Shown: in pieces, positions 24,201 through 30,200 of the stretch
How positions within the stretch are numbered: position 1 is the stretch's first letter
Layout: each line of letters begins with the position of its first letter
Assembly: GCF_006345805.1 (NCBI RefSeq)
Contig: NW_021834541.1
Location: 1-47,396, forward strand
Origin: Octopus sinensis
Lineage: Eukaryota
Direction: 5' to 3'
DNA: 47,396 nucleotides
Notes under the pieces: model-generated
Database searches by the model: none
What the model was told of the DNA's origin: nothing
The model's input: the letters and a program-made list of their open reading frames with translations, nothing else
Made by a program: the position numbers and the translations under genes

Positions 24201-27200
24201 ATTATATATATATATATATATAATGTATATATATATAAATATATATATATAGTGTATATATATATATATATATATATATATATAAATGTATATATATATA
24301 TTATAATATATATATATAAATATATATACATTATATATACATTATTATATAATATATATATAATATATATATATATATATAATATATATATATATAGTGT
24401 TGTGGTTCAGCTTAAGGACAGAGCCGGCGACCTACTTTGGGGATGAATCCATTGTTCTGCCAGATGCGGGTTGATTAATTAGCTCTGGGGAAACTCCCCG
24501 ACCCTGTCAGGTGAATTAGAGTTCAGTTTGTGAGAGACAGTGAGAGAGGATGAGGGGCTGAGGAAGACAGGCAGAGAGTATTGCAGAGCTAAGAGAGAGG
24601 GAGATTGCGACAGAGAGATTGGGGTAGTGACAAATCAGTCGGTATTTGGGAGTCAAGGCGAGCAGTTGGCAGTCGGATTTAGCAGTGAGGATTTGGTATT
24701 CAAGGCAAGCGGTTGGCGGTTGGATTTAGCGGTTGGCAGTTGGATTTAGCAGTGCTAAGAGAGATGAACTACAATGTGAGACATTGGCTAATGTAACGAT
24801 ACGTGAATTGAGTAAGGGACTTGTCGATGTGTTATAAAAGCTGGAAAAAGAAATGAAACAGTAAAAAGAACAATGTGAACTGTATTGATATGTGTTACAG
24901 AACTGTTAAAGCAAGAGAGAGATTCTGTTGTAGTCTTTAATGAACATTGAACTGTATATGCCTTTAATGTTCTTTGAACTGTAACGTTAATGTGATTTGA
25001 AACAGAACTGTTGTCTCCGGACTGTATGATGTATTGACTTGATGTTTAATTCGACGTGTACTCTTTAAATGCTGTTGTTATTGCATTTGATGTGTTGTTA
25101 CTTGCATGTATTTCCTCTTTGATGTATCTGATATGTATTTGATGTTGTAACAATTATAAAGTGCTATAAACTAGTACGTTAAATGTAGGCCAATTGCCTT
25201 CTTTGTGTCTCTCTCGATTGCCTCTGTGTCTCTTCTTGCGGCTGTTGTTGTAGTAGTTGTCTCTCTCTCTCCTCTCCGAGTTTCCGTGGCGAACATTTAC
25301 TGATCGATCGGGCCTGTGTGAGGGATTCCGTAACAGCTTTCGTTCGGAGGTCCCCCGTAACAATATATATACACATATATATATATATATATATATATAT
25401 ATAATACAGATTCAGTTGAATTGAGTTCTTAAGTTGAAGCACCAAGTCAGTCCGTTATAATCCGCGCGGATCGAAGTAAGGTGAATAAAGTCAAAATATG
25501 CAGCAGGATATGAAATAGTGATGCAGTACGACCATTTCAAGCGAGTCCATTGACTTGAAAAATGCAATTATTACATCAATTTAAACGCAGTGCTATCTTC
25601 AGCTGCACAAAATAAATATTATTTTTTAACTAGTAGGCTACATTAATGTTATATTAAAAAATCATGTTTTTGTGTCCATTTATTAAAAAACTCCATTTAG
25701 TTTGTGCAGCTGAAGATATAATTGCATTTAAACTGATGTAATGTTTGCTTTGTTCAATTAAATGGAGTCGCTTGAAACGGTCGTACTGCATTACTACTTG
25801 TTATCCTGTTGCTTATTTTGATTACACACACACACACCACACACACACACACTCACACACATACACACAAATACACACACACACACACACACACACACAC
25901 ACACACACACACACACACATATATATATATATATATATATATATATATATATATATATATATATATATATATCAAAGACATGTATCACATTATAGCAGGT
26001 TTGACAAAAAACCGAGTTTCATTGGGAAAGTAAATCCTCACAGGCGTATATGACACTGCGAGACTCCAAAACAAACCGTTTTTTCACTCGATAAAGAATG
26101 AGTGAAAAAACGGTAAGGACGATTTGTTTTGGAGTCTCGCAATGCCATATACGCCTGTGAGGATTTACTTTCCCAATGAAACTCGGTTTTTTCTCAAACC
26201 TTTTCTCAACCTGCTATAATGTGATACATGTCTTTGGTGTGGTAATTGTACGTGGCTGAAGAAGGCTTTTGATCTACCTGTTATATCAATTATGCATTGA
26301 TATAAGTTGTTCAATAAAGCCCGAAACATATGTACCGCAAAATCCTTTACGTCCTGTTTTTCTTTTGATACATATATCCTATCACCTATACCACTAGCTG
26401 GCATATACAGGTGCTTACATTTATCAAGTACTAGCAGCATAGCCCGGCGTTGCCCGGGTATGTAAGAGCCCCTAGTAGGCAACGACTAATCCCAATCTAG
26501 TCCTTTCCCTCTAGGGAACGAAGGCGCATGTGTAGGTTGCAATGTCTTCTCTTCACTCCCAAATAACTATCAAACAGCTATCGATAATTCAACCCAACCA
26601 ATTCCTACCAGGAAGAAATTACATTCGAGACTTTACCCCCAACACCGCCACTTCTGCTAATAGCTGCTGCAGCCGCAAGTTATTCGAATACTTTTTTGTT
26701 TACACTTTCTTTATAACTACCACCCCAAACGTTTTTCCTTAAATTTTTGACGTACCCTTGCAAACTCGTGGTTTATTATAAACCGCTTTTGTCGTGTGCA
26801 CCAAACAAACCTTTTCCATTCGCTTGTTCAGTTTGGTCACTTTTGACTTTTTCGTTGTTGTCACTCACATTGCTGCCCGCTTTTTTGCCGTTTTTGTACA
26901 TCTTTATACATTTTGGGATACTTACCCCACGTGTTCCGAGAGTTAAAAAGGTCGAGTTGCGTCCCCTAGACAGTCTGTAGAAAATGTGTTGCATATAAAA
27001 AGCTTAGATTCTCGACCCTTGTCGAATTTATCGATTATTTTTCAGGACTGGAGGAACTTTTCAAAATTTTCGCTGCGTTAGTTTTGAATTATGACATTGG
27101 GCTATGTGTGTGTCAAGTTTCATCAGAATCGGTTGAAAACCGTGGTCAGGGTGAGGGTACAACCTGACAGACACACAGACAGACAAACTGCCGTTTATAT

Positions 27201-30200
27201 ATAGAGAGATTCACCCTGAATTTATATATATATATATATATATATATATATATATATATAAAAGGTAAAGAAATCATTCGGTTATGAATGATCATCGGAT
27301 AGCACCCAGGATGTTAGATGTTACTCTCCGGGGCACGAGCCCGGGTAATGTTTTTATGGAAGACAAACAGTGGCCTATGTATGCCACACTCCATTCTCCA
27401 CGCCACCAATGTCATCTAAGAGAAAGGCAAGGGCCGATACAGCTTGACACCAGTGGCATCAGAACTCACTTCTAAAGCCTATTGAACTGGAAAAACATGG
27501 AAATATTGTGTCTTGCTCAAGCACAAAATCGAACTCCCTACCTCATGAGTGTGAGCCTGAGGTTCTAACCACTGAGCCTTGCATCTTCATATATATATAT
27601 ATAATCAAATTAAGCAACAGGATATCAAGTCGTGATACAATACGACCGTTTCAAGCGCCCATTCAATTGAACAATGCAATCAATACATCAATTTAAATGC
27701 AGTGCCATCTTTAGCTGTAGATAATGAATAGAATTTCAACCATTCGGACACATTACTGTAATGTTTCTAAAATATTTTAACAGAGTAAGAAGATGGAAGA
27801 AATTAATGTTATCGATATTGTAGCTAAGAAAAAAACTACACTTCCAAGAATCGCATGGAGGCTATTGGGGTGATAGTGTTGTAAAGGATTGTAATTCATT
27901 TCTAATTTCATTTATCTCTTTATCAACTACTAAATCTAAGACCAGAAGACAGTGTTCTGTTTTGAATAAAGGACAAGAATAAGTTGACAGCTCATGGCTA
28001 GGTATGGTCATAAATGTTGTATGTATTCCCTTTCCTCTAGGCAGAAAGAAGACATTAGGGGTAGTCAATTGGATATAAAGTAAGTGTCCATAAAAAGAGG
28101 CTTAGTAGTGTAAGACTTTAAATCATGATGTTGATTACCAGTTAAAGGGGCAAGGCGCAAAGAAACCAAAGATGTTAATGCAGACGAAATTTTATTATGT
28201 GTGATTGCTTATAAACAATATTGCTATGTTGTATAAAAATATAATAAGATTGTCAAAAATGGTATCAATACCGAAATAGGTAAAATGTGTGTCTTTATTA
28301 TAAACATTAAAAAGGAAAGATTACCGGAGACTAAACAGTATGCCTATGCCTCAGTAGAAGGTAAATCTGCAAAATCTAGGTTTTGGTACAATCGATTTAG
28401 GCAGATAAAATTTTGGGGAGAAATACATTTGAAGTGGACAATTTGTCAAAACATGTTTGTAAATCAATGATTTCTTTAGATACACCAATAACAATTACAT
28501 CATGTGTGGCAGAATCAGTGGTTTATTTCTCAATGTCCCTGGATTTAGCTATAACTAGGGGTACATTTTTACCTGATGTTTTCTTATATGGTCCTTTAAT
28601 GTAGGATTATGTAAGGAACTTTTCTTTTAATATCCGTCACAACAAATGTCCAGAATTTTCCTGTGGATGGTAAGATTTTGTTCGACTGCAATGATGGGGA
28701 AAGACACACGGGCCAGCTACCGCGGGGATCATACAACCATAATGCATCTTTGATTGGCCTGAAGTTAATGGAGCATAGAAACATTGCATTTATTGCAGTC
28801 AACTCATCTGTTTTTAAAATGTTCTCCAGTTTTGTACATATACATTGTATTGTATTCTGAAAGCATTCTTCTATTTTAGAACAGTGACTTGTTTTGTTAT
28901 ACGGATCTCGTATATATGAAGCTATAGCAAAGGTGGCCCGTCTCTCCAGCCATAAAATTCAAAGCCAGATGTCTAAATATAGAGGACATGTGAAACAGAT
29001 TAGATACAATGAAGAGTTTTATATATACATATATTAATGGTTGTACATGATCTTATCAATAAGTATCCAGACTGTTGCCATAGTAACAAAGCTAAAGCAC
29101 ACAGAGTAAAGTTGCTCGGCACAGATTGACATTTATCTCTATTGTGCACGCACGCTAAGTTTTGACTTTCTAGAGCAATTCCACTGTTTACAGCAGTGCT
29201 TGGAAGGAAGGTGTGTAGCGTGTGATCGTCACATTGACAATGATATAGAAAGCTGAGCAGAGAATCTGCATCAAATTTTGTCAAAAGTTTGACGATTCCT
29301 GCTCAGAGGGCCCTAGAAATTTTTCAATAAATTTTTATCGTCCCTGACACAATCAAGGACATGTTGTGCATCTGAAACCCGTGTGTCCTCTTGGTCATCT
29401 GAAAGCAGTTTTTGCACAAATTTGGTAGACACGCGTCTCAAACCCAAATCTTCAGTGGTAATGGCCGGAACCGTAACAAACCTGCACATCCTCTGATAAT
29501 TCAAGGATGGCAATTCGACGGTTTACCCACACAACTGTACGCACATCAGCAATGTTTTTTCTCAGTTCTGCTCGTTGCAGATCTTCCAGAATGTTCGTCA
29601 ATATCGACATTTACGGCCATACTTAAAATGTCTGAACCACTCTTAAATGTGTGTGTGGCTCATACACTCCTCTCCATACACTTTCTGCAACTTTACGTAG
29701 GCTTCCAAGCACTGCTGTAAACAGCGAATATGAGCTAGAACATAAAAAATTAGTGCGCATGTACAGCACAGATTGAGATCAATCTTTGCCAAGCGGCGTC
29801 ACTCTGCGTGTTTTTGCTTCGTTACTATAGCAACAGTCTGGATACTTATTGATCAGACCTCGTATATAGACAAAAAGTTGTGTACATATATAGTTTTGTT
29901 CAGCAGAAATGGAGTCTAGAAGTGAAGTATGGTTTTGGAATATATGTGGTGCACTGCTTTTGTAATATATCAGAGTCAAGACGTATATTTAACAAAATCT
30001 GTATAAATATACACGTGTGTGTGTCTGCGTAGCACTTATACACACATAAATCTGTCCGAACGTGGTTCTTTAAAATAGAAATTGTGAAACACTCATGGAG
30101 GTCACTGCAGAGTTTCATAATATTTTGTGCTGTAAACATGTATACCATGTAAAATTTGATATACATGAATGATATTGATGAAATCTGTTTATATTTTGTT

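What the first reader, a model, noticed from the sequence alone, without database searches (positions are those of the whole stretch)
25490..27730. Third hammerhead family: canonical core, long stem II, with stem I covariation visible in the window
Seen: TGCAG-CTGAAGA...GAAAC-GGTC-GTA-CTGCA on + (25705-25790), its inverted partner on - (25522-25607, GAAAT), and a third copy on - (27636-27719). In the third copy stem I is TACAG/TTGTA, which keeps pairing, but the core is CTAAAGA (G5 lost). Inference: a ribozyme-bearing repeat family. The + copy is sense in the intron before the RING exon, while the opposing arm could silence it by pairing.
Basis: partly seen in the sequence, partly recalled or inferred. 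Interest (0 to 1): 0.7.

Follow-up and report, generated by a model that had tools for sequence, protein, structure and literature searches.

The report
Long-armed hammerheads in octopus transposon ends
The three motifs are decayed tail ends of an abundant Penelope-type jumping gene sitting in an intron of an octopus gene; the family carries a predicted self-cutting RNA with an unusually long second arm, but the copy that faces the host gene has lost the base of that arm and is likely inactive.

Summary
The three motifs are there. They are the type I hammerhead in the terminal repeat of a Hydra-clade Penelope-like retrotransposon (RT + GIY-YIG; DKT, CxCx5C; TA-microsatellite targets) with at least 425 copies. 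The head-to-head pair 25405-25822 is one 5'-truncated insertion joined to an inverted copy of itself, as in 12 of 20 longer copies; the 'silencing arm' is a by-product of insertion. Real covariation appears between sister families in stems I, II and the palindromic stem III loop, which predicts cleavage as a dimer. Stem II closes with U·U, the norm in this clade. The + copy keeps 1 of 3 basal stem II pairs and is predicted locked in a 139-bp hairpin; the third copy lost G5. What is unusual is the 55-60-nt domain II, against 10-25 nt in 61 motifs from related metagenome elements; Rfam misses it. No cleavage was tested. This scan already noted the same long-armed octopus hammerheads on other DNA. 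Verdict: variant of a known kind, low-moderate interest.

The parts
25405..25655 (-). Inverted arm of the insertion: last ~60 nt of the element's 3' UTR, hammerhead, and the longer 3' end (about 118 nt past the predicted cut) running into a (TA)n tract
   Evidence: 82.5-86% identity to the 3' ends of distant copies L031 and L086
25521..25608 (-). Hammerhead copy 2: core intact, stem I 6 bp, three basal stem II pairs possible, C15.2 changed to U (U·G), upper stem II decayed; antisense to the host gene; predicted cut between 25527 and 25526
   Evidence: (domain II z +0.1)
25657..25822 (+). Direct arm of the same insertion, 5'-truncated ~50 nt before the hammerhead, ending at the family's short 3' end before (CA)n(TA)n
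   Evidence: arms meet at 25655/25657 without a spacer; inverted repeat I6, 139 nt, 83%
25704..25791 (+). Hammerhead copy 1: core and stem I intact, palindromic stem III loop, basal stem II broken (1 of 3 pairs); predicted cut after 25785; sense to the host gene
   Evidence: (domain II z -0.9)
27599..28322 (-). Separate 5'-truncated insertion of the same family (about 0.72 kb of 3' UTR plus hammerhead), ending in (TA)n
   Evidence: 77-82% identity to L014, L018, L019, L027, L029
27636..27719 (-). Hammerhead copy 3: G5 changed to A, 2-nt deletion in domain II, stem I with G-C to A-U and G-C to G·U changes; antisense to the host gene
25363..25403 (.). (TA)n tract at the left end of the paired insertion
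25824..25972 (.). (CA)n(TA)n tract at the right end of the paired insertion
21304..21486 (+). Host gene exon upstream of the intron that holds the motifs
   Evidence: tblastn of Octopus MIB2-like proteins, 85-89%
30208..30351 (+). Host gene RING exon downstream of the intron

Best explanation
The motifs are the hammerhead-bearing 3' ends of a Hydra-clade Penelope-like retrotransposon, left in an intron as one truncated-plus-inverted insertion and one truncated insertion, both decayed and likely without function for the host gene. Shown: the same sequence lies about 1.7 kb downstream of an RT + GIY-YIG reading frame and, in tandem copies, about 187 nt upstream of its start codon. Inferred mechanism for the parent element: a more-than-unit transcript carries two hammerheads; the 2-bp stem III is unstable alone, so two copies pair their palindromic loops into an 8-bp helix and cut after GUA, likely with help from the element's protein; reverse transcription starts about 30 or about 118 nt past the cut, at a nick in a TA microsatellite, often stops early and restarts on the other strand, giving head-to-head ends. 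The long domain II (U·U, 3-bp base, AU-rich middle helix, apical hairpin with a 3-nt loop) is kept by RNA-level selection in the source elements; its most likely role is a protein-binding or folding-control arm (inferred, untested). In this intron the + copy is predicted not to cut: its basal stem II is broken, the upstream arm is transcribed first and pairs with it, and no sense partner with a matching loop is in the window.
For: Continuous homology from the hammerhead back through the 3' UTR into the GIY-YIG and RT frames. Clade motifs RW, DKT, CNC-x5-C, CELC..E..N..CMH, no CCHH (against section 11 of PMC8557442). First-look candidates fall from 2689 at the hammerhead to 389 and 183 further 5' (not copy numbers). 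Inverted 3'-end piece 5' of the ORF match in 12 of 20 loci and 9 of 16. 3' ends: 24 short, 14 long, 7 unclassified of 45. Hammerhead-to-ATG 187-188 nt in L098, L105, L108. Across 14 aligned motifs of several families 86.5% of cells pair, 10 of 25 pairs show two-sided change, slid controls 27-44%. Domain II folds at z -2.7 to -3.4 in four sister-family motifs but z -0.9 to +0.1 in the three copies of the finding. Loop duplex -5.8 versus hairpin +2.4 kcal/mol. U·U in 28 of 61 metagenome motifs and 14 of 26 Hydra rows of File S2. Arms differ at 24 of 139 places, only 4 giving G·U on the + RNA, versus 96-99% arm identity in young insertions L107 and L109. Core or stem I hits in paralogous copies of the - arm (L002, L006).
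Against: No cleavage, RNA end or strand was observed. No intact full-length copy of this family was found among the loci fetched; the 4.7-4.8 kb unit is estimated from pieces. The + copy keeps its core and stem I in all 6 paralogues examined, although with about 7 changes in 133 nt this is expected by chance roughly 3 times in 10 (my estimate). Stem II can be as short as 1-2 bp in active natural hammerheads (PMC3088659 passages), so residual activity of the + copy is not excluded. Core positions differ less than others among the 45 copies (11/495 versus 60/1793 and 49/1160), but the copies were picked by similarity and include subfamily differences. The covariation controls do not correct for relatedness, and the structure was drawn from these sequences. 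No named Hydra reference was placed in a tree.
Confidence: 0.88

Rival explanations
1. The + copy is an exapted, active intronic ribozyme that cuts the pre-mRNA before the RING exon, with the opposing arm acting as a regulatory off-switch.
For: Sense orientation in the intron; core and stem I unchanged in 6 of 6 paralogues; hairpin strongly favoured, so silencing by pairing is physically right.
Against: Basal stem II broken in all 6 paralogues; an 86 kcal/mol gap leaves no switchable state; stem III needs a partner and the only other sense hammerhead in the intron pairs at 5 of 8 loop places, +0.9 kcal/mol; the same layout is routine in this family; arm differences are not pair-keeping (4 of 24).
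Confidence: 0.04
2. The family is a non-autonomous retrozyme or SINE that replicates as small circular RNA.
For: Type I hammerhead with palindromic stem III as in retrozymes; most copies are short; retrozymes derive from PLE repeats (10.64898/2026.07.22.740005, abstract and part 1).
Against: No head-to-tail short repeats among the 30 loci; 5' ends vary continuously and lead into an RT-endonuclease frame.
Confidence: 0.03
3. The inverted pair matters as a long double-stranded RNA in the intron (editing or small-RNA substrate), with the hammerhead irrelevant.
For: 139-bp hairpin at -160 kcal/mol predicted on the pre-mRNA; present in at least 6 paralogues.
Against: No selection for pairing seen; in two paralogues the outer part of the left arm's tail is replaced by another insertion (L002, L004); no RNA evidence that can be told from paralogue differences.
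Confidence: 0.05

Closest known systems
Hydra-clade Penelope-like elements and their hammerheads (Craig et al. 2021, PMC8557442; includes Hydra-1_Obim from an octopus)
   Same: C-terminal GIY-YIG, RW(K) and DKT motifs, CxCx5C linker, CxxC and CxH around E and N, (TA)n targets, 5' truncation with inverted copy, type I hammerhead near the 3' end with U·U-flanked stem II and palindromic stem III
   Different: Published Hydra elements are generally under 3 kb with a domain II of about 12-26 nt (File S2); this family is about 4.7-4.8 kb (Asn-rich linker, 1.7 kb 3' UTR) with a 55-60 nt domain II. Hydra-1_Obim (2507 bp, 7-bp stem II, 8-nt loop) is a different family by eye; it was not aligned.
PLE hammerheads with palindromic helix III (Cervera and De la Pena 2014, PMC4209133)
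   Same: In terminal repeats, mostly single or close on opposite strands, predicted dimers, low activity in vitro
   Different: No 5' bulge plus G10.1-C11.1; here a U·U pair and a much longer helix II
PLE-X1_sMoe hammerhead of Selaginella (File S2 of PMC8557442)
   Same: PLE hammerhead with a domain II of about 54 nt, listed as deviating from canonical
   Different: Unrelated, endonuclease-less plant element; shows that long arms have a precedent
Poseidon PAc of Anolis (Frangieh et al. 2024, PMC11167929)
   Same: Hammerhead in the pLTR; insertion ends set by internal start sites of reverse transcription
   Different: Different clade; its start codon lies inside the hammerhead; activity shown there (protein-assisted, not needed for insertion in vitro), untested here

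Membership tests
Type I hammerhead ribozyme (family level) | CUGANGA and GAAA core with UH cleavage site | tested here: met
   33 of 45 copies keep all core positions; met in copies 1 and 2, not in copy 3 (G5 to A)
Type I hammerhead ribozyme (family level) | Stem I enclosing the core, supported by covariation | tested here: met
   4 of 6 pairs change on both sides across families; the single change in copy 3 is not evidence
Type I hammerhead ribozyme (family level) | Stem II closing next to the core | tested here: met
   U·U then three pairs, 90.5% of cells paired, 2 of 3 pairs with two-sided change; G-C and A-U at the U·U place in sister families L105, L109
Type I hammerhead ribozyme (+ copy 25704-25791) | Stem II closing next to the core | tested here: not met
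   1 of 3 basal pairs; not formed under constraint
Type I hammerhead ribozyme (family level) | Stem III, stable alone or palindromic for dimers | tested here: met
   2 bp alone (+2.4 kcal/mol); 8 of 8 loop places self-complementary in 38 of 45 copies and in all 8 motifs folded
Type I hammerhead ribozyme | Site-specific self-cleavage | not testable with these tools
   Only contigs were available; they show no RNA ends
Rfam hammerhead families | Score above threshold | tested here: not met
   No hammerhead family among matches
Penelope-like element, EN+ | Single frame with RT then GIY-YIG | tested here: met
   RT motifs and endonuclease in fragments; Pfam GIY-YIG only E 0.003, below cut-off, RT not hit by Pfam; 49 homologues at E <= 1e-30 for sister family L109
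Penelope-like element, EN+ | pLTR from partial tandem, inverted 5' copy, one-sided tail | tested here: met
   Tandem in L098, L101 and sister L105, L108; inverted piece in 12 of 20 and 9 of 16 loci; short and long ends
Hydra clade | RWK, DKT, CxCx5C, CxxC/CxH, no CCHH | tested here: met
   RMRW/RIRWK, VPADKTGN, CNCRGKSHC, CELC..E..N..CMH read in translations
Hydra clade | (TA)n insertion preference | tested here: met
   24 of 45 copies end directly in microsatellite at the short end; window insertions flanked by TA/CA tracts
Hydra clade | Generally under 3 kb | tested here: not met
   About 4.7-4.8 kb estimated from pieces; a described tendency, not a strict criterion
Hydra clade | RT groups with named Hydra elements in a tree | not tested
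Non-LTR retrozyme | Short head-to-tail non-coding repeats with a hammerhead per unit | tested here: not met
   None among 30 loci; homology runs into an ORF

The most novel reading that the evidence does not exclude
An octopus lineage of Hydra-clade elements has turned hammerhead stem II into a conserved 55-60 nt arm that docks the element's RT-endonuclease and gates cleavage, and thousands of such Rfam-invisible ribozymes lie in octopus introns, where sense, unpaired, intact copies (such as the sister motif at 26248-26342) could cut host pre-mRNAs.
Probability: 0.2. Interest if true: 0.62.

Novelty: new variant of a known kind. Interest (0 to 1): 0.28.

Why it matters
As a locus it is ordinary transposon debris. 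As a family it extends the known shape of Penelope hammerheads: a long arm that keeps its pairing across families only about 70% alike in coding DNA, is absent from 76 related metagenome loci, and is missed by Rfam. The role of hammerheads in Penelope transposition is open (PMC8557442, PMC11167929); a natural arm that can be deleted back to the short Hydra form gives a direct test of whether stem II binds protein or sets cleavage rate.

Tried and rejected
Rfam on the window and on 25405-25822: only microsatellite or hairpin look-alikes. Pfam did not recognise the RT fragments. Sequencing runs: no holder on record as RNA; contigs of four runs laid on 25408-25820 include a 177-nt piece across the arm junction in one guessed-RNA run and a 163-nt piece in another run, but contigs show no ends, strand or level, so this is no evidence either way; exon joints from RNA were not obtained. 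I first took the element for a Neptune PLE from recalled motifs; the motifs in PMC8557442 section 11 put it in Hydra instead. A TACAG/TTGTA subfamily was sought and not found. A mixed dimer of the + copy with the sister motif at 26248 was rejected. The free RNAalifold consensus found stem I and the apical hairpin but not the basal stem II or stem III. My note's ORF length of 3.4 kb was an early guess; the pieces give about 2.8 kb. Rows dropped before counts: one search reduced 70 matches to 45 by removing identical rows, paralogues L002-L006 and L082, after keeping only near-full-length matches; 7 rows with gaps were left out of the folds (38 folded, basal stem formed in 17). Look-ups of earlier findings by place and by sequence gave nothing.
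Full report
Observation. A loose type I scan gave 7 hits in the window: these three, a fourth good motif at 26252-26338, and three weak ones. The pair forms a 139-nt inverted repeat at 83%. Rfam gives no hammerhead match (0 of 115; 0 of 11). The genome is 2.7 Gb and the host gene's closest proteins are Octopus MIB2-like ankyrin-RING-death proteins at up to 94%. Homology places exons at 21304-21486 and about 30208-30351 (RING) on +, so all motifs are in one intron and only the 25704 copy is sense.

Parent element. The motif is a dispersed repeat: 2689 first-look candidates, 40 scored, mostly about 90% alike, five of them paralogues of this gene with the same pair; an exact 21-mer occurs 425 times, control 0. 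Copies share 3' ends about 30 nt (24 of 45) or about 118 nt (14 of 45) past the predicted cut and have variable 5' ends. Walking upstream leads through about 1.7 kb of 3' UTR into a GIY-YIG frame and then an RT frame; candidates drop to 389 and 183 and are 223 at the RT N-terminus, where sister families join. The frames read RMRW, ADKTGN, FDIAMGS, GLYRDD, CNC-x5-C and CELC..E..N..CMH, which are the features given for the Hydra clade in section 11 of PMC8557442 (section read whole; other passages; supplement rows). That paper lists one octopus Hydra element, Hydra-1_Obim, with a short stem II. In tandem copies the hammerhead lies 187-188 nt before the start codon (L098, sisters L105, L108), so it is the pLTR hammerhead.

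The pair is one insertion. Both arms map to the element's 3' end and meet at 25655/25657 with no spacer; the left arm has the long end, the right the short end, each running into microsatellite. An inverted 3'-end piece lies 5' of the ORF match in 12 of 20 loci (two of them duplicates of each other) and 9 of 16 (one shared). PMC8557442 describes this layout and the one-sided tail as typical. Arms of young sister insertions are 96-99% alike; here they differ at 24 of 139 places, 4 giving G·U on the + RNA, 6 A·C, 14 other, as expected from unselected decay. The third motif ends a separate 0.72-kb truncated copy, 27599-28322.

Covariation. Of 14 other copies with TACAG, 13 keep a 3' strand and 1 compensates, near the background of 2 in 45 for that change. 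Real covariation lies between families: stem I TGCAG/CTGCA, TGTGG/CTACA, AATTGG/CCAAAT, TTTGG/CTGAA; first stem II position U·U, G-C, A-U, A·C; next pair A-U, U-A, C-G; stem III loops GGUC, GAUC, AAUU, AUAU, all self-complementary. On 14 rows, 86.5% of 349 cells pair, 10 of 25 pairs change on both sides, slid controls give 27-44% (related rows and a structure drawn from them inflate this). The apical hairpin was predicted independently by RNAalifold, which missed the basal stem II and stem III.

Stem II. U·U at 10.1-11.1 is normal here: 14 of 26 Hydra rows in File S2 and 28 of 61 motifs that my scan found in 49 of 76 metagenome loci encoding related proteins (reversed-sequence control 0 loci). 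PMC3088659 reports natural U10.1-U11.1 hammerheads and stems of 1-2 bp (passages). The arm length is the oddity: 55-60 nt in intact octopus motifs versus 10-25 nt in all 61 metagenome motifs although up to about 100 nt was allowed. A covariance model of the long form scores the octopus motifs 51-94 bits and metagenome matches at most 34 bits, all 45-60 nt short forms (training rows match by construction). A Selaginella PLE has a similar-sized arm. Five literature searches listed no paper on long-armed octopus PLE hammerheads; the library lacks most subscription journals.

State of the three copies. Copy 1 (+) has TATAATT where the family has TRGCACT; 1 of 3 basal pairs is left and stem II does not close next to the core under constraint. 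On the pre-mRNA the two arms fold at -160 kcal/mol versus -74 with copy 1's stems forced. Copy 2 keeps core and base but has U·G in stem III and a decayed upper arm. Copy 3 lost G5, which is needed for catalysis (recalled). Domain II folds no better than shuffles in these three (z -0.9, +0.1, -0.95) but clearly better in four sister-family motifs (z -2.7 to -3.4). Among 45 copies, 33 keep the core and 15 keep core, stem I, basal stem II and the second stem III pair.

Mechanism. Shown: position, architecture, family-level pairing, decay. Inferred: dimer cleavage, since the loop hairpin costs +2.4 kcal/mol and the two-copy helix gains -5.8, as proposed for PLE hammerheads whose monomers did not cleave (PMC4209133, parts 1-2 of 4); protein assistance and internal start of reverse transcription by analogy to PAc, where hammerhead cleavage was not needed for insertion in vitro and no RNA ends were seen at the cut (PMC11167929 passages). 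Insertions here also end past the cut, so uncut RNA likely served as template. The arm's job is untested; a protein-binding or folding-control role is my best guess.

Earlier notes of this scan reach the same reading on other octopus DNA; my reading was written down before I saw them, and their genome-wide counts of over 10,000 motifs were not tested here. Verdict: observation confirmed, interpretation partly supported, new variant of a known kind, interest 0.28.

Noticed in passing
window 26248-26342 (+): Intact hammerhead of a younger sister family (copies 92-97% alike, 1510 first-look candidates), 60-nt domain II closed by A·C, palindromic loop; sense in the same intron and its inverted 5' piece (about 25973-26080) stops short of the hammerhead, so it is not predicted to be trapped. 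No ORF was found in the 20 loci fetched.
   Followed up: partly
window about 26430-27210: Insert that splits the tail of the sister element and is absent from L144-L159; its ends look Helitron/Helentron-like (recalled, not tested).
   Followed up: partly
window 5097-8601 (+): Near-complete PLE with RT and GIY-YIG, DKG and C-x4-C-x2-C linker, so Neptune-type by the motifs in PMC8557442; repeated ends near 4633 and 9341; frameshifted.
   Followed up: partly
window 3882-4343; related pieces 22255-22496 and 23829-24068: Perfect 228-nt inverted repeat, likely a very young inverted PLE end of another family.
   Followed up: no
window 30967-37300: About 2.1-kb unit repeated three times at 97-98%, duplicating a short host exon (31882 and 34006) after the RING exon.
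   Followed up: no
window 3092-42718 (+): Host gene belongs to an expanded octopus ankyrin-RING-death-domain (MIB2-like) family; at least six paralogues share these intronic insertions.
   Followed up: partly
window 1-3012: 3-kb (GAT/GAG)n trinucleotide array.
   Followed up: no
protein P0036: An annotated octopus ankyrin-RING protein contains a stretch 73% identical to the Hydra-type RT of L109, either a gene-model artefact or exonised PLE sequence.
   Followed up: no
L109:2179-6888: Young sister-family element with nearly continuous ORF and 98.9% identical inverted ends, a good source for assays of the long arm.
   Followed up: partly
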